Shown here piece after piece: positions 2,174-55,336 of a stretch of DNA of 64,000 nt. A model generated the notes under the pieces. That model had not been told where the DNA came from, did no database searches, and saw nothing but the letters and a program-made list of their open reading frames with translations. This stretch comes from an uncultured Metamycoplasma sp. (GTDB lineage Bacteria > Bacillota_I > Bacilli_A > Mycoplasmatales > Metamycoplasmataceae): contig CAYSZT010000003.1 of NCBI GenBank assembly GCA_964435585.1, forward strand, positions 14,870 to 78,869. The letters are read 5' to 3'. Both the position numbers and the translations under genes were made by a program. The first letter of the stretch is position 1. Each line of letters starts with the position of its first letter.

Positions 2174-4108
2174 ATGTGAGAATTAAAAGAAAGTATTTGA
2201 GATAAACAAATTGGTGATAGCCAAGTAGGTTTTGATTTTTCAGGTAGAGAAATTCATTTCGATGATTTTCAAAATTATGGATCTGATTTTGGTTGAAACA
2301 TTATTTCGTTTGACGATTACAAAACATGTTTAGTTGTTAACATTGCGACAGAAAACGAAATGCCTGAAAATCTGATTAATCATTTAGATGAAGAGTTCAT
2401 TATTAATGGAAAACTGTTTTCAATTTCTGAAAATGACCATGGAAGTTTTGATGTTAATTTAATCAAGCACTTATCATCAGGGAAAATGGTTGACCCCTCA
2501 GAACAACATGAAACATATAACTTCAACAAAGTTGAAAACAATGATTATTTTGCTTTTAGAAATGAAATGAACGAAATGCACAATGAGGTTCAAGACATGA
2601 GAGACGACTTAGAAGAAACAATACAATTACAAAAACAACAAATTGAAGAATTAGAAAAACAACTTGTGAATAGTAAATCTAATAGTTATGAAAAGAGAAT
2701 TGAGGAATTAGAAAACCAAGTTAGAGCAAATCAACTTCAAAAAGAACGTACTCAGCAAATTGAAATTGAAAAAAATAATCAAAGAATTGATGCATTAAGA
2801 AGACAAATTGAAACAACTCAATTTTCTATTCCGAATAAAGATTTAGGTGGCACAAAAGTCATTAGTTTTCAAAATACTTCTTTAATTGATGACTTGTCTA
2901 GAAAAATTAATGAAAAAACAATGATCATTAATTCTTTAAAACTTGACCAAGAAAATAATGAAAGAAGATTGAGTGAAATTCAAAAAAACAAAGAAAGAGA
3001 AGCTAAAGAAAGACAAGAGAGAGAAGAAAGAGAAAGATTAGAAAAAGCAGAGAGAGAAAAACAAGAGCAAGAAAGACTTGAAAGAGAGAGATTAGAGAAG
3101 GAAAGACTTGAAAAAGAAGCTAGAGAAAAAGAAGAATTAGAAAGACAAAAAGCTTCCGAAAAACCTCGAAAAGAAGAATCAGAATTAGTTTCAAGATTAT
3201 GAACATTAAATTATGGTGACCAGACCCTGGCTATGGATTTTGCTGGTAGAGCAATGTTAAGGGATAAATATGGTCTTGACGAAGAAGGCGGATGAGATGC
3301 AGATTATTATGATTTTGACTCATCTGTTGATATGTTTTTAGCTTCAACGAAATCAATTAGAGAACGTGATAAAAAGCAAACTTTTTCAATTGGTGAATTT
3401 GAATACTTTATTACAAATAATGGTGGAAAATGGGAAATTGAAAAATGTAAGAAAGGTCAAAACAATTACAACTTCTCATCTAAAAAGATGAAAAATATTG
3501 CTTCTTCATTTAAACCAGAAGATAATGAATTTATTGGTGAATATGAAACATATTCTTCATTAATGGTTAATTTAGATCACTTTCCATTAATTCATTTAGA
3601 TAAATTTGAAAAATTCTTAAAACAAATTTTATCTGATTTACCATTTTACAAAGATTGCTTCATTTACTCAAATGAAAGATTATATGCAACAAACCAATCT
3701 GATATAAGTGCTTATGCAAGAATTTTCTTCAAAACAAATTCAACAAAAGATGATATTCAAATTTTACTAACATCAATTTCATTGAAAAAAGCAATGAAAG
3801 ATTTTATTGTTAATTTCCAACCAGCAACACAAGGTCAAAAAATTTCATACTCAATGATCTTGACAAATCACAAAAAATTATTGAAATTTGTTCATGCACA
3901 AACAAATTTTGAGTTATTAAGATCAAACCCAATTCCTTCAAACTTACCAAAAGAACGTTTAATTCTTGACAATGAGTATAACTTGATTTTGAAATTCCAT
4001 GAAAACAATTTATGAAAAAAACTGAAACCTTATGCTTTAGATCATCAAGGTCACACTTACTACGTTTGTGAAATTGATCCTGACAGTCTAGATATTAATT
4101 TTTCATAA
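2174..4108 (+). CDS. hypothetical 644-aa protein: two degenerate HNH-like modules flanking a charged ER/EK coiled coil
   Basis: ATG at 2174 followed immediately by TGA(Trp). Track ORFs 2360..3202 and 3332..4015 share this frame and join across TGA. The central run is EREAKERQEREERERLEKAEREKQEQERLERERLEKERLEKEAREKEELERQK. TAA stop at 4106..4108. Confidence 0.7.
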
Positions 4109-15244: not shown

Positions 15245-15276
15245 AAAATCTATTGGTTTTCAGTAGATTTTTTTTT
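15245..15276 (+). terminator. rho-independent terminator after pgk
   Basis: Stem aaaatctattg / cagtagatttt (11 bp including one G-U), loop gtttt, followed by a T-run through 15276. Confidence 0.6.
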
Positions 15277-15286
15277 ATTCTTTTTT

Positions 15287-15295
15287 TGATATAAT
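15287..15295 (+). promoter_or_regulatory. extended -10 (TGaTATAAT) for gyrB
   Basis: tgatataat lies 57 nt upstream of the gyrB ATG, immediately after the pgk terminator. Confidence 0.45.
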
Positions 15296-15307
15296 TTTTA
15301 TTAGTAA

Positions 15308-17287
<1,980 letters not shown>

Positions 17288-17350: not shown

Positions 17351-18289
17351 TTATGCTTTAAAGTCATTTAATTGATTTATTCATGATACTATTTCATGAG
17401 AATGACTTGTACCGTGATCGTGGAAACAAAGAATGAATAGAGCAGCTGCAATCCCGATAATAAAGATCAACATAGTGATATATCAACTTTTACCTGAGAT
17501 TCTTAAATCATGTAGGAATTCAGGGAAGAATTCAATGATAGAAATGAACAATAGAAACGCTGCTGCTATTAATTGAACAACATGAATTGCTATTTCATTT
17601 TCAAGCGAGAATCACCCAATAATCGCTCCGATTACAATCAATGGAATAACTAGACCTACAGCAATCAAACTATTTGCTGTTGCTCTTTTTTTAGAAATAC
17701 CCATGTCAATTTGTCTATAGTAGATGATTAGTTCTTCTGGGATAACATGAATTACAAATGAACAAAGGAAGACAATATTTACAACATTAATACTCTCTCT
17801 TGCGATTTGAGAACAAAGTAATCCAATAATAATTCCGTCAGGTATTCTGTGAGTTAGAAGAAAGAAGATGGCAAATGCTTTTGATTTAGGATTATAGTCA
17901 GACACATTAAATATCATTTCGTCATGATTGTGTGTATGAATATCTGTCTTGCCTTTTTTATTAGCAAAAAAGAATTTAATTCCTAAACACAATAGTAATC
18001 CACCAAGAACAACAGAAGTAATGACTGCTGCAGTTATCACCTTACCAACAACCTCATTATTCATTTCAGAGATAAAATGTTCTTCAAGATGAATTTTTGA
18101 TTCACCAATGAATAAAACAGTTGACATGATCAAGAAAAATCCTGATGAAAAGGCATAAAGATAACGATTAGCTTTTTTACTAATTGTAGGTTTTAAAATA
18201 GGAAGTATCGCCCCGCATAACAAAGGAATACCTATTACAAATGCAGAGATACAAGATATAACAACTACTAATATTTGAACGTCGTTCAT
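17351..18289 (-). CDS. ZIP-family divalent metal (zinc) transporter, ZupT-like
   Basis: Track ORF 17612..18289 continues across TGA codons to the TAA at 17351..17353 (checked codon by codon). Multiple TM segments, His-rich loop (TDIHTHNHDE), C-terminal HDHGTSHSHE. Confidence 0.85.
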
Positions 18290-18308
18290 TTTATTAGTAC
18301 CTTTCTAC

Positions 18309-18332
18309 GTAAACTTATCTTGATAAGTTTAC
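18309..18332. promoter_or_regulatory. perfect 11-bp inverted repeat (gtaaacttatc tt gataagtttac), candidate operator upstream of the ZIP transporter
   Basis: It lies 20-43 nt upstream of the ZIP ATG (18289) in the 60-nt spacer. No T-run follows it on the minus strand, so it is unlikely to terminate the nuclease gene. Confidence 0.45.
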
Positions 18333-18349
18333 AAGTTTCATTTTATCAA

Positions 18350-18922
18350 ATTAGATTATTAACTAGGAAATATTTTTCTTAATGTTGCTTCACTTTCAGA
18401 TCAAAAACCTTTTTTATTTTTCTTTGCATAATCTTGTAAGTCATAAAGATTATTTACATAGTCAGTATCATAATAATAAAAGTAATTATTTTTGATGGTT
18501 GAGATATATCTAACGATAGCGAATCCATTTTTAATCATGTAGGAACCGTAGTCTAACCCATTGTCTAGGGTAACTTTTGCTATTTTTCTATGATACTTAT
18601 CTTCTTTCGAAGTTTCTACTTCAACATTTCTATTTTTCAAGATTTTACTAGCTTCATTTTTTGCTATTGTTCCATAAAAATATTGTGGCCCACTAGTATT
18701 ATTGAAGTTATTATTTGAATCATATGTTTCAGGTGTATCTATGCCAAGAATTCTATATCTTTGACTTGAACTTTCAAAAGTATCACCATCAATGATTTTA
18801 TTAACTATTATGTTTTTTGAATAATTTGAAACAAGGTTACATGATGTTGAGGTAACAAATTGAGTTATACAACATAATGAACCTATAAGTGTTAAGGAAA
18901 TTTTTTTAAAATTAAGCTTTAT
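18350..18922 (-). CDS. secreted/lipoprotein thermonuclease (SNase-like); start codon uncertain (non-canonical)
   Basis: The frame of track ORF 18401..18640 extends both ways across TGA. The upstream part encodes (I/M)KLNFKKISLTLIGSLCCITQFVTSTSC (signal/lipobox) and the SNase motif IIDGDTF...RYRILGIDTPE. There is no in-frame ATG/GTG/TTG between the TAG at 18932..18934 and the catalytic motif. TAA stop at 18350..18352. Confidence 0.7.
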
Positions 18923-24485: not shown

Positions 24486-24517
24486 ACACTATAATGATAA
24501 CAAATTGATTATTTAAT

Positions 24518-25480
24518 TCAATTTACATCTTGTTTTTCAACAAGATCATAAATGGTCAATTTATTTGATTCAAGATTTTTATTATCTTTTAATGTAAACC
24601 CAGTCAATCTTTCATTATTATATGTGTTGTAATATAAAGACATTGTTTTTGAACTGTAGCAGTTTGTATAGATTGTAATTTCACATCTTGATTGGTGCCC
24701 AACAACTTCACCTCTTGTTTGAGCAACTGATTTTAATGTGTGGAAGTGTTGTGCTACATCAGCTTCTTCAGTGTCATCACATTTAGATGTTAAGTTTGTG
24801 TAACAAGCTCTTATGAATCTATCTTGTGAAGCAACTCCACCTGGTAGACCTGTTGTGCCTGTTCCATTAGAAATAATTTTTATATTTTCATTGTACAGTT
24901 CAGTTCTTTGATTTGGATTTAAATTTGCATGATAATTCATGTTTTCAACATGATATGGAAATTCAGGATTATTTGCTAAAGTTTTTAGAGGGTTATCATA
25001 TACATTTAAACCATTTTTTGTTGATTCAATAACGATACAATCGTCCTCGTCTGCCATCAATCAATGTAGTGGCGATAATGGTAATTTATCACTAAAGTTA
25101 ACATTTGTAAGGTTCATTTTTTCTAAAAATTTTCTTGCTTCCTTAACAGTTGCACAAGAACCCAAGATATATGGAATTAATTCAAATGGTGTAATATTTA
25201 ATGCTCCCTCTTTTCTTTCGAAGTATTTTGCATATCCATCAAAATTCAGACCTGCCATAAATAAACCTTTTTCATTCATTCCGTCATAATATAATGGATA
25301 ATCATCAGCAACCATTGCCATTCCGATTATTCCATAGCTCATTTTCATTGGTTCATTATTATCTCTTAAGTTCAATTTGTAATTTCTTGGAGTAATAATA
25401 ACTTTTGTAAATGGTAATTCAAATTCAAGATCTAGATTTCTACCAAAATAATTTTTTTTGTGTTTTATTCCCGTGCACAT
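24518..25480 (-). CDS. choloylglycine hydrolase / linear amide C-N hydrolase family (Ntn hydrolase, 320 aa)
   Basis: Track ORFs 24518..25060 and 25061..25480 share a frame and are separated only by TGA. The N-terminus MCTGIKHKKNYFGRNLDLE has the Cys2 nucleophile and the FGRNLD motif typical of the bile-salt hydrolase / penicillin V acylase family. Confidence 0.85.
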
Positions 25481-25596: not shown

Positions 25597-27552
25597 ATGG
25601 ATTCATCAAATTATAGTGCTAAGAATATAGTTGCCCTAAAAGGCCTTGAAGCTGTTAGAAAAAGACCGGGGATGTATATAGGTTCAACAGATGTAAATGG
25701 TTTACATCATTTAGTTTGAGAAATTTTTGATAACTCAGTAGATGAAGTTTTGGCAGGTTTTGCTACAGATATTAAAGTTGTTTTAAAAAAAGATGGTTCA
25801 GTTGTTGTTGAAGATAATGGGCGTGGAATACCTATAGATATGCACTCGAGTGGAAAAACAGGGGTTGAAACTGTTTTTACAGAATTACATGCTGGTGGTA
25901 AGTTTAATAATGATGCTTATAAGACAGCTGGTGGTTTGCATGGTGTTGGTTCATCAGTGGTTAATGCTTTATCTACACATTTAACTGTGACAGTCTTTAG
26001 AGACAAGAAAACATATGAGACAAAATTTGAAAATGGAGATAACATTGTACAAAGAACAAAGGAAATTGGACCTACTTCAAAAAGAGGGACAATGGTTCAA
26101 TTTTGACCTAATTATCCTATTTTTAAAAATTCAAAGTTGTCTTATGAAGTTATTTGCGAAAGATTGAGAGAATCTGCTTTTTTACTTTCAAATTTAAGAA
26201 TTGTTGTAGTTGATGAAAATTCGAATCAAAGAGAAGAATTTCATTACAAAGAAGGTATAAAATCTTTTGTTTCTTTTATTAATCAAAATAAAACAACTAT
26301 TTCAGATATTTTCTATGTTAATGAAAAAAACAAGGCAACAGGAATCGAAGTTGAAATAGGACTTCAATATAATGATGGTTATAGTGAAACAATTGTTTCT
26401 TTTGCAAATAATGTTAAAACAAGAGATGGTGGAACACATGAAGGTGCATTCAAGACGGCTTTAACAAAAGTTATAAATGATTATGCTCGAGAAAAAGGAT
26501 TTTTAAAATCAAGAGATGCAAACTTTGAAGGTTCTGATATTAGAGAAGGAATTGTAGCAGTCATTTCTGTTAAAGTTCCAGAAGCTATTTTGGAATTTGT
26601 TGGTCAAACAAAAGACAAATTATCTACTCCAGAAATTAAAAAAGTTATTGAAGACTTGCTTCAAAAACATCTTTATTTTTGATTAAATGAAAATAAGAAA
26701 AATTCAGAAAGAATTCTGGCAAAATCAAAACAATCAAGAGAAGCTAGAGAAGCAGCTAGAAAAGCAAGAAATGAATCTAGAAAAGCTAAAGATAAAATGT
26801 CTGAGGTGAAAATTCTTTCAGGTAAATTAACTCCTGCTCAATCAAACAAACCATCGGAAAAGGAATTATATTTAGTTGAGGGAGACTCCGCCGGAGGTTC
26901 GGCAAAGCTTGGAAGAGATAGAAGATTTCAAGCTATATTACCTCTAAGAGGAAAAGTTTTAAATACAGAAAAAGCGAGATTAATTGACATTTTAAAAAAT
27001 GAAGAAATAGCAACAATCATTAATTGTATTAATGCAGGAATAGGTTCTGACTTTAAAATTGAAAATGTTAAATATCACAAGGTTATTATTATGACTGATG
27101 CTGATACAGATGGAGCTCACATTCAAATACTATTATTAACTTTCTTCTTCAGATATATGAAACCTTTAATTCAAGCAGGAATGCTTTATATTGCTCAACC
27201 ACCATTATTTAAAGTAAGTTATATGAATAAAAATAAAAAGGAAAATGTCTACTTTTGATCCGAAGAAGAATTGAAATCATATCTTGCTAATAACTCATCA
27301 AGATCTGTTGAAGTACAAAGGTACAAAGGGCTTGGAGAAATGAATTCGGACCAATTGTGAGAAACAACAATGGATCCTAAAACAAGAACTTTAATAAAAG
27401 TTACAGTTCAAGATGAAGCAATAGTTGAACGTAGAGTCTCAACTCTTATGGGTGATGCTGTTGAGCCAAGAAAAGAATGAATTAATAAGAATGTTGAATT
27501 CAGTTTAGAAGACAACTTCCAAATTAATCAAAGCACTAGTCAAGATGAATAA
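25597..27552 (+). CDS. parE: DNA topoisomerase IV subunit B
   Basis: ATG at 25597. Track ORFs 25750.., 26137.. and 26797.. share a frame and join across TGA. GLHHLVW(TGA)[44 protein letters not shown]. This is the second GyrB/ParE paralog and the shorter one (651 aa vs 644 aa), so the ParE assignment is by elimination. Confidence 0.85.
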
Positions 27553-33405: not shown

Positions 33406-34185
33406 ATGAAAAAATACATTGATTTACACTGCCATCCTTTTAAAGAATATTTTGAATCCCCAATGGATGTAATTAATCAAGCTAAAAAAAAGGGAGTTAG
33501 TAAAATATTTCTGGTCGGAACAGATTTAAATAATTCAAAAGAATCAATCGAGTTAGCTAAAAAGGATGAATCACTATTTCCGATTATTGGTATCCATCCA
33601 AATGATTCTTGAAACGAGCGAATAATAGATGATTTAGAAAAGCTCGTCGATGAAACAGTGGTTGGTATTGGTGAAGTTGGTCTTGATTATCACTATGAAG
33701 AAAGCCCATTAAAAGAAATGCAAGAAAGATGTTTTAGAAAACAAATTGAAATTGCAATTAGAAATAATATTCCTGTCATTGTCCACTCAAGAGATGCTCA
33801 TGAAGATACTTATAGAATAATAAAGGAATATAGAACAAATTTTCCATCTTCAATATTCATTCTTCATTCATATTCTTCAGGTCCTGATTATGTTCAAAAA
33901 TATGTCGATTTAGGTGTCTATTTTTCTTTCTCGGGCATAGTGACTTTTAAAAATGCAAAGGACACTCAAGAAGCTGCAAAATTAGTTCCATTAGACTTAA
34001 TTTTTTGTGAAACCGATACTCCCTATTTAGCACCGACTCCTCATAGAGGTAGGACAAATTTACCTGAATATGTTGTTGAAACAACTAATTTTATTGCCCA
34101 GTTAAAAGGAATAGGTGTTGAGGTATTATTGGAAAATATTAATAATAATTTAAATAGGTGTTTTCCAAAACATTTCAAAAGCTAA
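33406..34185 (+). CDS. tatD: TatD-family metal-dependent hydrolase/DNase
   Basis: Track ORFs 33406.. and 33658.. share a frame and join across TGA. DLHCH, GEVGLDYHY, VHSRDA, ETDTPYLAP. Confidence 0.9.
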
Positions 34186-34255
34186 TTTGTTAAATGGGAA
34201 GTTTTCAAAGCAAATAATCACATTTTAAATACCAGTAACTTTTGTTGACAAATTT

Positions 34256-34302
34256 ACAAAATCTGGCGTTTTTTTTTTTTTTTTTTTGTAAAATGAATCT
34301 TG
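34256..34302 (+). promoter_or_regulatory. conserved promoter/leader module A: acaaaatcTggcg-T19-g-TAAAAT-gaatcttg
   Basis: A -10-like TAAAAT sits at 34289..34294, directly next to the homopolymer. The flanks are near-identical to the reverse complement of 54829..54871. Confidence 0.55.
34269..34287 (+). repeat. homopolymeric T19 tract
   Basis: I counted 19 consecutive T between ...ctggcg and gtaaaatg. It is the longest homopolymer in the window. Confidence 0.9.
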
Positions 34303-34315
34303 TAAAGGAGAATTT

Positions 34316-34609
34316 ATGGACCAACTAGCATTAGCAAAGTCAATTAAGAAAAAAGGAATTATTGGATTAATTTTAATTTTCACATTGATTGGAGCAATCG
34401 TTACCTTGATTTTAGATATTATTTGTGGTGTAAAAATAATTTCAACTAATTGAAAGAATAAAGAAGTTGAAAATAGCAAGGTAATTTGAGGAGTTTTTTG
34501 TTTTGTAATATTAGGACCAATTTCAGCAATTATCTTTGGTTCAATTGCAGTGAACAAGATGCAAGAAAATTCAGATGGAACAACATATAGTAATATCGAA
34601 GAAGACTAG
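34316..34609 (+). CDS. small two-TM membrane protein (97 aa), family member P1
   Basis: aaaggag RBS and ATG at 34316, with two in-frame TGA(Trp). Shares TNW[KR]N...IWG[VI]F..V.LGPIS..IFGS with the next gene. Acidic C-terminus ...YSNIEED. Confidence 0.65.
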
Positions 34610-34616
34610 AACATAG

Positions 34617-34625
34617 TGCTATAAT
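34617..34625 (+). promoter_or_regulatory. extended -10 (TGcTATAAT) for CDS 34640
   Basis: tgctataat ends 14 nt before the ATG, and no SD sequence lies between them (short-leader transcript). Confidence 0.45.
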
Positions 34626-34639
34626 ATTGTTACCACGAT

Positions 34640-35089
34640 ATGAAAACAAATTTAAGGTCAAAAGCTATTCAAATAAGAACAATGGGAATTATTGGTATTT
34701 GCATTTATGCATTAGATATTGCTCTTTCCATTTTTTTAATTTCTATGTCGACTTCATTTATTAATGGAGGTGTTTCAGAAAACACATTTGGAAATTCATA
34801 TGGTATAGTTTCGATTATTCTTTTAGTTTTCTCTGTGATTCTTTTTGCACTAAACATAACATGCTGTATTAAGATATTAACAACAAATTGAAGAAATGAA
34901 AAATTGAACAACCAAAAGACAATTTGAGGAATTTTTTCAATTGTTCTTTTAGGCCCAATTTCATCTGTGATTTTCGGTTCAATGGCTTCTAAAACACTAA
35001 AGAATCATCAAGACAATAATTATGAACTTAATGTTTCTACTGAAAATAATGTTAGTGAAGAGAATGACTATTATATAGAGGGAGATTAG
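34640..35089 (+). CDS. small four-TM membrane protein (149 aa), family member P2
   Basis: Track ORF 34640..34891 extends across TGA codons to the TAG at 35087..35089. Its C-terminal half is paralogous to P1 and its N-terminal half resembles the C-terminal half of CDS 54137..54814. It ends ...NDYYIEGD. Confidence 0.7.
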
Positions 35090-46382: not shown

Positions 46383-47216
46383 TTATTTATCGACAAACTT
46401 ACCATCTTTTTTTCATCTCTCAAGTAATTCGATGTATTGCTGTTCATCTTCACATTTTAAATATTCAATCAAGTCCGCATCTTTTGAGTCGTTTCATTTT
46501 GGGCTAATGCCAGATTCTGTATGTTCATAATATCATTCTTTTATTTTTTTTATATCATCATAAACTTGCTCTTTATTAACAAGAAATTTATAATTTTTTA
46601 GTTTTCTTTTTCGAATCGGATAATCACTTGGGTTAAGATAGTCTTCATCCTTTAGGAATGTTGCAACAATTCAAAATTTATCAACGCCCATTAATCATGA
46701 ATAAATTTGAGCCTGCTTTAAGTAACCAACAGGGATGTTATTTTCTTCTCACTTTCCATAATTTTTTTCACCTGTTGTTTTTATTTCGATAATGATTTTA
46801 TCTCTTTCAATAAAACCATCAGGAATCCCGCCAATGATATCATCCTTGTCTTTAAAAAAATCATAGTCATATTTTTCGGGCTGATAAGTTGTAACGCTTG
46901 TTTTTAGAACTGATTCAAGAGCAGAAATAACCATTGGCTCGATTGCAATACCTGCATCAACATATTTTCTATCAAGAACAGGAAGACCACATCACGCCAT
47001 ACGACAAAAAGCAGCAAATTGAGATTTAAAATCGTCAACCTCTAAAACATCTCCTACCGAAGAACCACCTATCTTTTTAAAACCGAATTTTCCTCATAAA
47101 GTTTTTTTAAGTAGCTTTTCGTGGAATTCCTTATTTAGAATTAGTTTCTTGTTTTCAAAATCTAATTTGTAGTCTTTGTTATTATAAAAATGTCTTTTTG
47201 GAATGTTGTTAATCAT
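46383..47216 (-). CDS. YqaJ-like PD-(D/E)XK exonuclease-family protein (277 aa)
   Basis: ATG at 47216. The frame of track ORF 46749..46934 extends in both directions (checked, no TAA/TAG). GGSSVGDVL..., GIAIEP..., GIPDGFIERDKIIIEIKT resemble the YqaJ/lambda-exonuclease core (D...E.K). Confidence 0.6.
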
Positions 47217-54136: not shown

Positions 54137-54814
54137 TTAATCTTCTTCTATATAGTAATTTGAAGAACTATCTGAAGGACTGTAACTTGAGCTATTTTCC
54201 TTACCATAAGCTTTGTTGAATTGACTTTTTAGAACTAATGCTAATACAAAGATTGCTATTATTGATAATAACTCAATCACTGCCAGGAATTCAACGCTAC
54301 CAATAATAAAATTAAGAATCAACATTAAAACATCTATACCAAAAACACAAATACCAACAATTGATGTTGTGAGCATCAGCCCTTTTAACCTACCGAAATG
54401 TTTTGCTCCTCTTATTATTTTTATAGAGAAGACAAAAATACCAATAATTGCTGTTAGTAATAGAATTGCTACGGCAACTAGATAAATTCAGTAGAAGGCA
54501 TTAAGCTCATAATATCCGTAACTATCACGTTTATAGAATACATCAGTAAATAACAAGATTAGAAACAATATATAAAGTACAAAATATGCAGGAACCAATC
54601 AAGAAAAACCAACTAACCCTTTAATATTTTTTCTCATTGTTTTTGTTTCATTAGAGTCAGAGTTTGTATTTGTTTCTGAATAGTTACTAAATGAAGACGT
54701 TTTACCACTTTTAATTTCATCTAGCTCTTTTTCCATTCTAGCTTTTTCAAGTTCTAGTCTTAATCTTTCGTGTTCTTGTTTAAGTTGTTCATTTGTTTGT
54801 TTTTGTTCACTCAT
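54137..54814 (-). CDS. polytopic membrane protein (225 aa), family member P3, with an N-terminal coiled-coil segment
   Basis: Track ORFs 54137..54376 and 54599..54814 share a frame, and I translated the gap and found it open. The segment TSIVGICVFGIDVLMLILNFI resembles P2 MGIIGICIYALDIALSIFLI. It ends ...SSNYYIEED. Confidence 0.7.
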
Positions 54815-54828
54815 AAAATGACCTCAAT

Positions 54829-54871
54829 CAAGATTCATTTTACAAAAAAAAAAAAAAACGCCGGATTTTGT
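54829..54871 (-). promoter_or_regulatory. conserved promoter/leader module B: acaaaatcCggcg-T15-g-TAAAAT-gaatcttg (read on the minus strand)
   Basis: The reverse complement matches module A (34256..34302) apart from tract length and one flank base. The -10-like TAAAAT lies at 54837..54842 on the minus strand. Confidence 0.55.
54844..54858 (-). repeat. homopolymeric A15 tract (T15 on the coding strand of the downstream gene)
   Basis: I counted 15 consecutive A between ...ttttac and cgccgg. Confidence 0.9.
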
Positions 54872-54889
54872 TGATTTTTTCCACAAAAA

Positions 54890-55336
54890 CTAGCGTTTTT
54901 TCTTATAAATTCTTGCTATTTTTCATTTCATTATAAAGACTGTCATGAATTGGATTGCAGGTAAAAATGAAATGATAGCTCAAAATAAAATCCAACCCTT
55001 CATTTCTTTAAGAGGACAAGAGATCACTTTTACCAATAGAATAATTGTTAATATTCAAGAGATAAAAACCAAGATACCAATTATAGACGTAAATATACCA
55101 ATAAGGACAACCCTTATTCTGTGAATTTCATCATTTTTAGTTAATTCGCTAATAATAATGATTATAAGAGAGGCAATAATAATTGTTAACTTTACTAGAA
55201 ACATATTTGATAAACGAACAATGTTTCTATAAATTGGGACTAAAAGAGAAATGGATTGATTTGAAAAGTGACTACTTTTTAAGTTGTCCTTGAATTTATT
55301 GATTTTTCTTTCTCTTCTACTTGCTAATAAACCCAT
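54890..55336 (-). CDS. hypothetical membrane protein (148 aa) downstream of hpt
   Basis: Track ORF 55055..55336 extends across TGA codons to the TAG at 54890..54892 (checked codon by codon). It starts 2 nt after the hpt stop. Confidence 0.55.

What the first reader, a model, noticed from the sequence alone, without database searches (positions are those of the whole stretch)
54812..54892. A second copy of the same homopolymer promoter module lies 20 kb away on the opposite strand (locus B, 15-mer)
The reverse complement of 54829..54871 reads acaaaatcCggcg-T15-g-TAAAAT-gaatcttg, then attgaggtc-atttt-ATG (start of CDS 54137..54814). The 13 nt upstream of the tract differ from locus A at one base, and the 15 nt downstream (gtaaaatgaatcttg) are identical. 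Only the tract length differs (15 vs 19). Farther upstream the two loci are still similar (ttttgtTGACAaattt vs ttttgtGGAaaaaatca). Conserved non-coding flanks around a hypermutable tract at two unlinked loci argue for a dedicated regulatory cassette rather than chance. The different lengths could mean one locus is ON and the other OFF. The module overlaps the 3-prime end of the upstream CDS (stop at 54890..54892).
Basis: seen in the sequence. Interest (0 to 1): 0.78.

Follow-up and report, generated by a model that had tools for sequence, protein, structure and literature searches.

The report
Poly-T terminator–promoter cassette in gut Mycoplasma
Two (probably three) copies of a short DNA module, a hairpin followed by an unusually long run of T's and a promoter -10 box, sit in front of genes for a small orphan family of membrane proteins in an uncultured rabbit-gut Mycoplasma; it looks like the slippage-prone promoter switches already known from other mycoplasmas, so it is a new example of a known trick.

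Summary
On the minus strand, 54871..54829 reads ACAAAATCCGGCG-T15-G-TAAAAT-GAATCTTG. ATG 54814 lies 22 nt after the -10 box. Locus A (34256..34302, plus strand) matches at 27 of 28 flank positions and has T19. These are the only A/T runs of 10 or more in 64 kb. The organism is an uncultured Mycoplasma (TGA=Trp, 28% GC); its closest named relative is Mesomycoplasma moatsii. A third copy (T19) precedes a 34%-identical homologue of the locus B gene in a volcano-rabbit faecal metagenome. All four cassette-driven genes encode orphan multi-pass membrane proteins ending in Y-x-x-I-E-E/G-D. An independent assembly of the same organism differs in length only at the two tracts (T16; at least T20). The conserved upstream half is the 3' arm of a hairpin. 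Hairpin plus T-run scores as a strong mycoplasma-type intrinsic terminator for the co-directional upstream gene. Identity stops at the predicted transcription start. My best reading is a duplicated terminator-plus-promoter junction whose hypermutable T-tract probably modulates expression, as in M. hyorhinis vlp, M. arthritidis maa2 and M. bovoculi vpb. ON/OFF switching is unproven, and the similar M. agalactiae vpma T-tract does not switch. This is a new member of a known kind, of modest interest.

The parts
54829..54871 (-). Locus B core cassette: ACAAAATCCGGCG-T15-G-TAAAAT-GAATCTTG
54844..54858 (-). T15 homopolymer. It is T16 in the independent Logan contig L003.
54837..54842 (-). Predicted -10 hexamer TAAAAT. 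The predicted +1 is near G 54829, where identity with locus A ends.
   Evidence: sequence inference; the TSS is not mapped
54859..54871 (-). Conserved 13-mer, which is the 3' arm of the hairpin/inverted repeat with a GC clamp (CCGGCG) abutting the T-run
54883..54895 (-). 5' arm of the hairpin (CGCTAGTTTTTGT). It contains the TAG stop (54892..54890) of the upstream gene.
54137..54814 (-). Gene B: 225 aa under code 4. An N-terminal helix is followed by 4 TM helices and a disordered tail ending NYYIEED. It is an orphan.
54890..55336 (-). Upstream co-directional gene (148-aa membrane protein, 2 nt after hpt), whose transcript the hairpin plus T-run would terminate
34256..34302 (+). Locus A core cassette: ACAAAATCTGGCG-T19-G-TAAAAT-GAATCTTG
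34269..34287 (+). T19 homopolymer. It is at least T20 in Logan contig L084, which ends inside the tract.
34232..34245 (+). 5' arm of the locus A hairpin (CCAG-taac-TTTTGT), pairing with ACAAAA-t-CTGG
34316..35089 (+). Two-gene unit driven by cassette A: A1 (34316..34609, 97 aa, ends YSNIEED) and A2 (34640..35089, 149 aa, ends DYYIEGD). They are paralogues (38% identity) with a DUF4190-like C-terminal half scoring below threshold. A hairpin plus T7 follows A2.
33406..34185 (+). Upstream co-directional TatD-family gene at locus A

Best explanation
The module is a compact junction of two transcription units that has been copied to at least two, probably three, places in the genome of an uncultured gut Mycoplasma. 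It consists of four elements. (1) An imperfect inverted repeat (TTTTGT, a 10-11 nt loop, ACAAAA, closed by a short G+C clamp CYRGCR). (2) An uninterrupted T15-T20 run. (3) One G and a TAAAAT -10 box. (4) An 8-nt discriminator ending at the predicted start site. A short leader with a Shine-Dalgarno sequence follows, then a gene of an orphan family of multi-pass membrane proteins with a Y-x-x-I-E-(E/G)-D C-terminus. The proposed working has three steps. The hairpin plus U-run terminates transcription coming from the co-directional upstream gene. The downstream gene therefore depends entirely on the -35-less promoter that begins at the end of the T-run. Because a T15-20 run slips during replication, its length changes at high frequency, which alters the distance and helical phase between the -10 box and the conserved A-tract/GC element upstream. 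That would vary promoter output from cell to cell, either ON/OFF as in vlp, maa2 and vmm, or graded as in H. pylori sabA. Shown: the anatomy, copy number, conservation across strongly diverged genes, exceptional tract length, terminator score, and length differences confined to the tracts. Inferred: the TSS, termination, slippage in vivo, and any effect of tract length on expression.
For: The cassette is real and far beyond chance. It holds the only A/T runs of 10 or more in 64 kb, in a sequence that otherwise lacks runs of 10-14 although about 11 are expected. A third copy, ACAAAATCCAGCA-T19-GTAAAATGA, lies 23 nt upstream of the ATG of a 237-aa homologue of gene B with only 34% identity (L090). 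The promoter flanks and a long tract are therefore kept while the coding sequence has diverged almost beyond recognition. All cassette-driven genes, and no other ORF in the window, end in Y..IE(E/G)D. Identity between loci A and B stops at the predicted +1, and the leaders then differ but each carries an SD. Other promoters in the window are -10-only (TGnTAWAAT) with no consistent -35. In 12.8 kb aligned between the window and Logan contigs of run SRR14209496 there are 5 substitutions. The only length differences are at the two tracts (T15 vs T16; T19 vs at least T20), while the 22 other A/T runs of 7 or more in the same aligned stretch showed no length difference. The hairpins fold at -9.2 kcal/mol (locus B, the strongest gene-end hairpin in the window) and -5.5 kcal/mol (locus A). 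By the de Hoon decision rule, which I checked against published values, they score d = 9.0 and 7.9, against 1.7-5.1 for M. agalactiae vpma terminators (PMC2268961). Precedents exist. Promoter poly(A)/poly(T)/TA tracts switch vlp, maa2 and vmm (PMC2268961; PMC10502178). M. bovoculi vpbA-E promoters carry poly-T (PMC3931370). The H. pylori sabA T-tract acts as a rheostat through alignment with upstream A-boxes (PMC4081817).
Against: There are no expression data and no read-level tract-length distribution. The one-T differences between assemblies may be Illumina or assembler homopolymer error. It is unknown whether the NCBI assembly and the Logan contigs come from the same sample. No -35-like hexamer sits at a 16-18 nt spacing for any observed tract length, so the classical spacer mechanism has no visible partner element. 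The TG is adjacent to TAAAAT rather than in the extended -10 register. In M. agalactiae, a poly-T immediately upstream of the vpma -10 box produced no slippage-driven OFF variants (PMC2268961). The strict terminator scan found nothing here, because the loops are 9-10 nt and there are few G-C pairs, and the locus A hairpin is no better than shuffled sequence (z = -0.3). The third copy is not in the NCBI assembly, so it may belong to a sister strain. No related species carries the cassette or the genes, so conservation can only be judged within one lineage.
Confidence: 0.5

Rival explanations
1. The module is only an ordinary mycoplasma intrinsic terminator (weak stem, very T-rich tail) abutting an ordinary constitutive -10-only promoter. 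On this reading the T-run is long because terminators in this clade rely on the T-stretch, and possibly because a T-rich spacer makes a strong promoter. Its length drifts neutrally, and the two loci are similar because the junction was duplicated together with an ancestral gene.
For: The de Hoon score is well above experimentally supported mycoplasma terminators (PMC2268961). Both upstream genes are co-directional and end 0-46 nt before the hairpin. Another junction in the window (pgk/parE, 15249-15300) also reads hairpin, T9, then TATAAT. The M. agalactiae vpma poly-T next to the -10 box does not switch.
Against: No other terminator candidate in the window has more than 9 consecutive T's, and runs of 10-14 are absent although about 11 are expected, so a tract of 15-20 is not needed for termination and appears to be counter-selected elsewhere. 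The flanks stay 27/28 identical (A vs B) or 22/28 identical (L090 vs B) while the driven genes share 34% or less protein identity. That argues for constraint or repeated conversion of the cassette rather than passive inheritance.
Confidence: 0.3
2. The inverted repeat upstream of the T-run is an operator for a dimeric DNA-binding regulator, and the cassette marks a small regulon. On this reading the T-run is a spacer that sets the regulator's position relative to RNA polymerase.
For: The two 13-nt arms are imperfect inverted copies separated by 10-11 nt at both loci. ACAAAATC is invariant in all three copies. All driven genes belong to one C-terminal-motif family.
Against: The 13-mer occurs no more often in the window than chance predicts, apart from the cassettes. 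No regulator gene is adjacent. The 5' arms differ considerably between A and B (CCAGTAACTTTTGT vs CGCTAGTTTTTGT), which fits RNA pairing better than a protein-recognised half-site. Mollicutes have few transcription factors (established knowledge).
Confidence: 0.1
3. The two cassettes are recombination substrates. They are inverted copies facing each other across 20.5 kb, with the driven genes inside. Inversion between them would exchange which upstream context (and which tract) drives which gene, as in the vsa/vsp/vpma inversion systems.
For: The inverted repeat is 30 nt exact and 47 nt near-exact. Gene orientation is mostly reversed between the two copies relative to the flanks.
Against: Each copy has its own complete promoter, so an inversion would change little. 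No tyrosine or serine recombinase was found among eight otherwise unassigned ORFs scanned, only a YqaJ-like exonuclease. The skew profile simply follows coding strand. The Logan graph cannot resolve linkage across the shared 30-mer.
Confidence: 0.05

Closest known systems
Mycoplasma hyorhinis vlp promoters (poly(A) tract between -35 and -10; Yogev 1991, Citti & Wise 1995, as summarised in PMC10502178 and PMC2268961)
   Same: A homopolymer of 15-20 nt lies inside the promoter. A conserved 5' regulatory region is shared by several genes. Each gene has its own copy, which would allow combinatorial expression. The host is a Mollicute.
   Different: The vlp genes are clustered and encode lipoproteins with repetitive surface domains. 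Here the loci are 20 kb apart and the genes encode multi-pass membrane proteins with no lipobox. No -35 partner is visible. An upstream hairpin makes the tract a terminator tail as well.
Mycoplasma bovoculi vpbA-E and M. arthritidis maa2 (poly-T tract in the promoter; PMC3931370, PMC2268961)
   Same: The tract is poly-T, on the sense strand, in the putative promoter of surface or membrane protein genes in mycoplasmas of the hominis group.
   Different: Those genes encode surface (lipo)proteins. vpb is a tandem array of 52-66% identical paralogues. No sequence similarity to those promoters was tested or claimed here.
Mycoplasma agalactiae vpma / M. bovis vsp unique promoter (poly-T immediately upstream of -10; PMC2268961)
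   Same: The geometry is the same, with a T-run directly abutting the -10 box. Rho-independent terminators with weak stems and T-rich tails flank the genes.
   Different: There, variation comes from Xer1-mediated inversions and the T-tract did not generate OFF variants. Here each gene has its own promoter and no recombinase was found.
Helicobacter pylori sabA promoter T-tract rheostat (PMC4081817)
   Same: An intergenic T-tract (T9-T18+) varies by slippage. [quoted passage not shown] The organism has few transcription factors.
   Different: The sabA tract lies upstream of a recognisable -35 box. Here it occupies positions -14 to about -30 directly next to the -10 box.
Mycoplasma-type intrinsic terminators (de Hoon 2005 criteria as applied in PMC2268961)
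   Same: A weak stem-loop is followed by a very T-rich stretch 0-80 nt after a stop codon. The d scores are 7.9-9.0.
   Different: The T-run is uninterrupted and about twice as long as needed. The loops are 9-10 nt. The run is fused to a -10 box 1 nt downstream.

Membership tests
Promoter simple-sequence-repeat contingency locus (vlp/maa2/vmm type) | A long mono- or dinucleotide repeat located within the promoter of the regulated gene | tested here: met
   T15/T19/T19 ends 1 nt before TAAAAT, which lies 21-23 nt before an SD-preceded ATG. The promoter is predicted from sequence only.
Promoter simple-sequence-repeat contingency locus (vlp/maa2/vmm type) | The repeat length is polymorphic within or between populations of the same strain | tested here: inconclusive
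   The window has T15/T19 and the Logan SRR14209496 contigs have T16/at least T20. These are the only indels in 12.8 kb, and no length difference was found at the 22 other A/T runs of 7 or more in the aligned stretch. Homopolymer error cannot be excluded without reads.
Promoter simple-sequence-repeat contingency locus (vlp/maa2/vmm type) | The repeat length determines transcription (ON/OFF or graded) | not testable with these tools
   This needs transcript or reporter measurements for defined tract lengths.
Promoter simple-sequence-repeat contingency locus (vlp/maa2/vmm type) | The repeat sits between recognisable -35 and -10 hexamers, so that its length sets the spacer | tested here: not met
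   At 17-nt spacing the hexamers would be TCCGGC/CCGGCG (locus B) or GCGTTT (locus A), at most 3 of 6 matches to TTGACA. The consensus scan finds no promoter here. Promoters in this genome generally lack a -35 box.
Promoter simple-sequence-repeat contingency locus (vlp/maa2/vmm type) | The regulated genes encode variable surface lipoproteins | tested here: not met
   There is no lipobox or signal peptide. Gene B has an N-terminal helix, 4 TM helices and a disordered tail. A1 and A2 are small multi-pass proteins, DUF4190-like but below threshold.
Intrinsic (Rho-independent) terminator, mycoplasma type | A stem-loop immediately followed by a T-rich stretch, downstream of a co-directional stop codon, with a positive de Hoon d score | tested here: met
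   The d score is 9.0 (B) and 7.9 (A), against 1.7-5.1 for vpma terminators. Hairpin energies are -9.2 and -5.5 kcal/mol at 37 C. The stop codons lie 0 and 46 nt upstream of the hairpin.
Intrinsic (Rho-independent) terminator, mycoplasma type | A canonical G+C-rich stem (at least 3 G-C pairs) and a loop of 3-8 nt | tested here: not met
   The strict scan returns 0 sites at both loci. The loops are 9-10 nt and the stems are interrupted. The locus A fold is no better than shuffles.
Site-specific inversion systems (vsa/vsp/vpma) | A single promoter is shared among silent genes through recombinase-mediated inversion at conserved 5' sites, with a recombinase gene in the locus | tested here: not met
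   Every copy has its own -10 box and tract. No integrase or recombinase domain was found in eight otherwise unassigned ORFs scanned. The rest of the genome was not available.

The most novel reading that the evidence does not exclude
One hypermutable T-run does two jobs at once: it is the U-tail of the terminator that insulates the gene from upstream transcription, and it is the spacer of the gene's own -35-less promoter. A single slippage event would then change read-through and initiation together. On this reading the self-contained 'insulated switch' cassette has been propagated to scattered loci to control a previously undescribed family of YxxIE(E/G)D-tailed membrane proteins in a commensal gut Mycoplasma.
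Probability: 0.25. Interest if true: 0.5.

Novelty: new member of a known kind. Interest (0 to 1): 0.36.

Why it matters
If the tracts do modulate expression, this extends slippage-driven promoter variation in three ways. It would then reach beyond the classical lipoprotein antigens of pathogenic mycoplasmas to integral membrane proteins. It would reach an uncultured gut commensal of a wild lagomorph. And it would apply to dispersed rather than clustered genes. It would also be a clean natural example of a terminator and a variable promoter sharing one homopolymer, which is useful for minimal-genome promoter and insulator design. If the tracts do not modulate expression, the finding is simply a duplicated terminator/promoter junction. 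In that case it serves as a caution that long promoter-proximal T-runs in mycoplasmas are not automatically phase switches.

Tried and rejected
1. A scan of GTDB species-representative genomes for T9-GTAAAATGAATCTT gave 0 hits.
2. A scan of JGI metagenomes for T8-GTAAAATGAATCTT gave 5 hits. All are in non-Mollicute contigs without the upstream half, so I treated them as chance.
3. I examined the orthologous hpt neighbourhoods of 19 related Mollicutes. None has a T-run of 10 or more near hpt, a homologue of gene B or mem148, or the cassette motif.
4. Protein homology searches for B and A2 in 5.8 billion sequences returned only the queries themselves. A full HMMER scan found P0008 and two weak hits, one of which (P0009) sits on a contig that does not look Mollicute.
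5. Pfam found no family for B, mem148, p57 or the L090 neighbour gene.
6. The structure model of B (pLDDT 76.6) had no PDB fold match with E below 0.5.
7. Rfam found nothing in the window.
8. I rejected the upstream in-frame ATG at 54838 as the start of gene B. It lies inside the -10 box, and the equivalent ATG at locus A is out of frame.
9. I did not use the places where the Logan contigs end (at the tracts) as evidence of heterogeneity. Three of the contigs (L001, L002, L003) end at the 30-mer shared by loci A and B, and Logan contigs are simplified graphs.
10. GC skew was not informative about an inversion because it follows coding strand.
11. An exact look-up of the DprA-like protein found no encoding contig.

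Full report
**Observation.** On the minus strand the window reads ACAAAATCCGGCG (54871..54859), T15 (54858..54844), G, TAAAAT (54842..54837), GAATCTTG (54836..54829), ATTGAGGTCATTTT, ATG (54814). Locus A on the plus strand reads ACAAAATCTGGCG (34256..34268), T19 (34269..34287), G, TAAAAT (34289..34294), GAATCTTG (34295..34302), TAAAGGAGAATTT, ATG (34316).
- The 15 nt downstream of the tract are identical and the 13 nt upstream differ at one position.
- The chance of 27 or more matches in 28 flank positions is about 1e-13.
- These are the only A/T runs of 10 or more in the 64 kb; the next longest is 9.
- A first-order model fitted to the rest of the window predicts about 11 runs of 10 or more but only 0.15 of 15 or more. 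Long runs are therefore generally avoided and exceptionally present here.
- Similarity extends upstream only to a TTTTGT block and downstream only to the G at 34302/54829. The repeated unit is thus about 65 nt and is not part of a larger duplication.

**Organism and genes.** The window has 28.4% G+C, and long ORFs appear only when TGA is read as Trp.
- The Hpt protein next to locus B is 78% identical to that of Mesomycoplasma moatsii and of an uncultured Mycoplasma. It is 60-68% identical to those of other Metamycoplasmataceae.
- The proteins occur in one NCBI contig of 85,976 nt and in Logan contigs of run SRR14209496. That run is a faecal metagenome of the volcano rabbit sequenced on HiSeq 4000 (PMC8378336).
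- Gene B (54137..54814, 225 aa) is modelled as an N-terminal helix, four transmembrane helices and a disordered tail. It has no Pfam family and no PDB fold match.
- Cassette A drives two paralogous small membrane proteins, A1 and A2 (38% identity). Their C-terminal half resembles DUF4190 but scores below threshold.
- All three proteins end in Y-x-x-I-E-(E/G)-D, and no other ORF in the window does.

**A third copy.** A full HMMER scan with B found one clear homologue, P0008 (E 1e-16). It is encoded on a 1,508-nt Logan contig from the same run (L090).
- That contig begins ACAAAATCCAGCA-T19-GTAAAATGAGCTTTAG, and an ATG follows 23 nt after the -10 box.
- Read from that ATG the protein is 237 aa, 34% identical to B, and ends NYIIEED.
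- Across the three copies, ACAAAATC..GC.-Tn-GTAAAATGA is invariant.
- The gene is not in the NCBI source. It may therefore lie on an unbinned contig of the same genome or in a sister strain.
- Either way, the promoter flanks and a long tract persist while the coding sequences have diverged to 34% identity.

**Tract-length differences.** Four Logan contigs align to the window over 12.8 kb with 5 substitutions.
- The only length differences are at the two tracts: T16 instead of T15 at locus B (L003), and at least T20 instead of T19 at locus A (L084 ends inside the tract).
- The 22 other A/T runs of 7 or more in the same aligned stretch showed no length difference.
- This is what hypermutable tracts would give. 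It is also what homopolymer error would give, so I count it as suggestive only.
- I draw no inference from where the contigs end. L001, L002 and L003 end at the 30-mer (T15+GTAAAATGAATCTTG) shared by loci A and B, and L084 stops inside the locus A tract.

**What the upstream half is.** At both loci the conserved ACAAAA pairs with the conserved TTTTGT 10-11 nt upstream. The G+C block next to the T-run pairs with a different sequence at each locus: CCAG/CTGG at A, and CGCT.G/C.GGCG at B.
- At B the 5' arm is an imperfect inverted copy of the 13-mer and contains the stop codon of the upstream gene.
- The B hairpin folds at -9.2 kcal/mol, the strongest hairpin-plus-T-run at any gene end in the window. 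The A hairpin folds at -5.5 kcal/mol. Folded with its A-rich and T-run flanks, the locus B region reaches -18.2 kcal/mol, z -3.1.
- Mycoplasma terminators are described as weak stems with very T-rich tails (PMC2268961).
- I applied the de Hoon decision rule, which reproduced all seven published vpma values. The cassettes score d = 9.0 and 7.9, against 1.7-5.1 for the vpma terminators.
- Both upstream genes (a TatD-family gene, and a 148-aa membrane protein gene following hpt) are co-directional with the cassette.
- The strict consensus scan finds no terminator, because the loops are 9-10 nt.
- I conclude that a terminator role for the hairpin plus T-run is likely though not proven.

**What the downstream half is.** With a terminator immediately upstream, the downstream gene needs its own promoter. 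The only -10-like hexamer between the T-run and the SD is TAAAAT.
- Other promoters in the window are -10-only, commonly TGnTAWAAT, with no consistent -35 box.
- Identity between A and B ends at the G seven to eight nt after the hexamer, which is the expected +1. After that point the leaders differ.
- No -35-like hexamer lies at 16-18 nt for any observed tract length. A classical spacer switch therefore has no visible partner.
- The upstream region does contain phased A-tracts and the GC block. Their position relative to the -10 box would shift by one base pair and about 34 degrees per T, which is the logic shown for the H. pylori sabA T-tract (PMC4081817).

**Comparison with known systems.** Slippage in promoter homopolymers or dinucleotide repeats switches vlp (M. 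hyorhinis), maa2 (M. arthritidis) and vmm (M. mycoides) (PMC2268961; PMC10502178).
- M. bovoculi vpbA-E each have a promoter poly-T (PMC3931370).
- The geometry here, with a T-run abutting the -10 box, is the same as in the M. agalactiae vpma promoter. That tract, however, gave no OFF variants in phase-locked mutants.
- The present case differs from the classical families in four ways. The genes are not lipoproteins. The loci are dispersed. There is no -35 box. The tract doubles as a terminator tail.
- No relative examined carries the cassette or the genes, and JGI metagenomes gave only chance matches.

**Verdict.**
- The ON/OFF reading is plausible but unproven.
- The 'half-site' is better explained as a terminator arm.
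- My estimates are as follows: about 0.85 that the cassette holds the promoter, about 0.65 that it also terminates upstream transcription, about 0.8 that the tracts are unstable in vivo, and about 0.5 that their length has a selected regulatory effect.
- This is a new member of a known kind, and interest is modest.

Noticed in passing
window 18300-18360 (minus strand), upstream of gene 17351-18289: The promoter region reads gaTAAAATGAAACTTGTAAAC, which closely resembles the -10 box plus initial transcribed region of cassette A (TAAAATGAATCTTGTAAAG). It has no T-run. A perfect 9-bp hairpin (aaacttatc-aa-gataagttt) follows in the leader of a 312-aa membrane protein gene.
   Followed up: partly
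window, whole: A/T homopolymers of 10-14 nt are completely absent although about 11 are expected from a first-order model. The run-length distribution stops at 9 and then jumps to 15 and 19.
   Followed up: yes
window 34273-34302 and 54829-54858: The two cassettes form a 30-nt perfect (47-nt near-perfect) inverted repeat facing inward across 20.5 kb, with the driven genes inside. This is a possible substrate for a large inversion. No recombinase was found among the eight otherwise unassigned ORFs scanned.
   Followed up: partly
window 24509-25480 (minus strand): This gene belongs to the choloylglycine (bile-salt) hydrolase family (Pfam CBAH, E 1e-84), a gut-adaptation gene in a Mycoplasma.
   Followed up: no
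window 46383-47216 (minus strand): A YqaJ-like viral recombinase/exonuclease domain protein (E 8e-8) is embedded among housekeeping genes.
   Followed up: no
L091:1-52 (Logan SRR27489441): The contig encoding a distant homologue of gene B (P0010, 28% identity) starts with (AT)5 about 40 nt upstream of the ATG. This may be a dinucleotide-repeat promoter, but only 10 nt of the repeat are visible.
   Followed up: no
L086:10-42 and L087:2596-2629 (JGI Ga0082212): T14-15 followed by GTAAAATGAATCTTTATT matches the downstream half of cassette B at 33 of 34 positions. The contigs have 38-50% G+C, are not Mollicute-like, and lack the upstream half. I treated the match as coincidence.
   Followed up: partly
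window 54890-55336 (minus strand): The 148-aa membrane protein encoded just upstream of cassette B is weakly similar to the C-terminal half of B (pairwise E 0.004). It may be a further diverged family member that lacks both the cassette and the IEED tail.
   Followed up: partly
window 2990-3146: Imperfect tandem repeats rich in AAG/GAA encode an E/K/R-rich low-complexity stretch in a 644-aa protein with no Pfam family.
   Followed up: no
window 15353-17287 and 25597-27552: Two GyrB/ParE-type paralogues 10.2 kb apart share 70-74% nucleotide identity over several blocks. They account for the largest direct-repeat families in the window.
   Followed up: no
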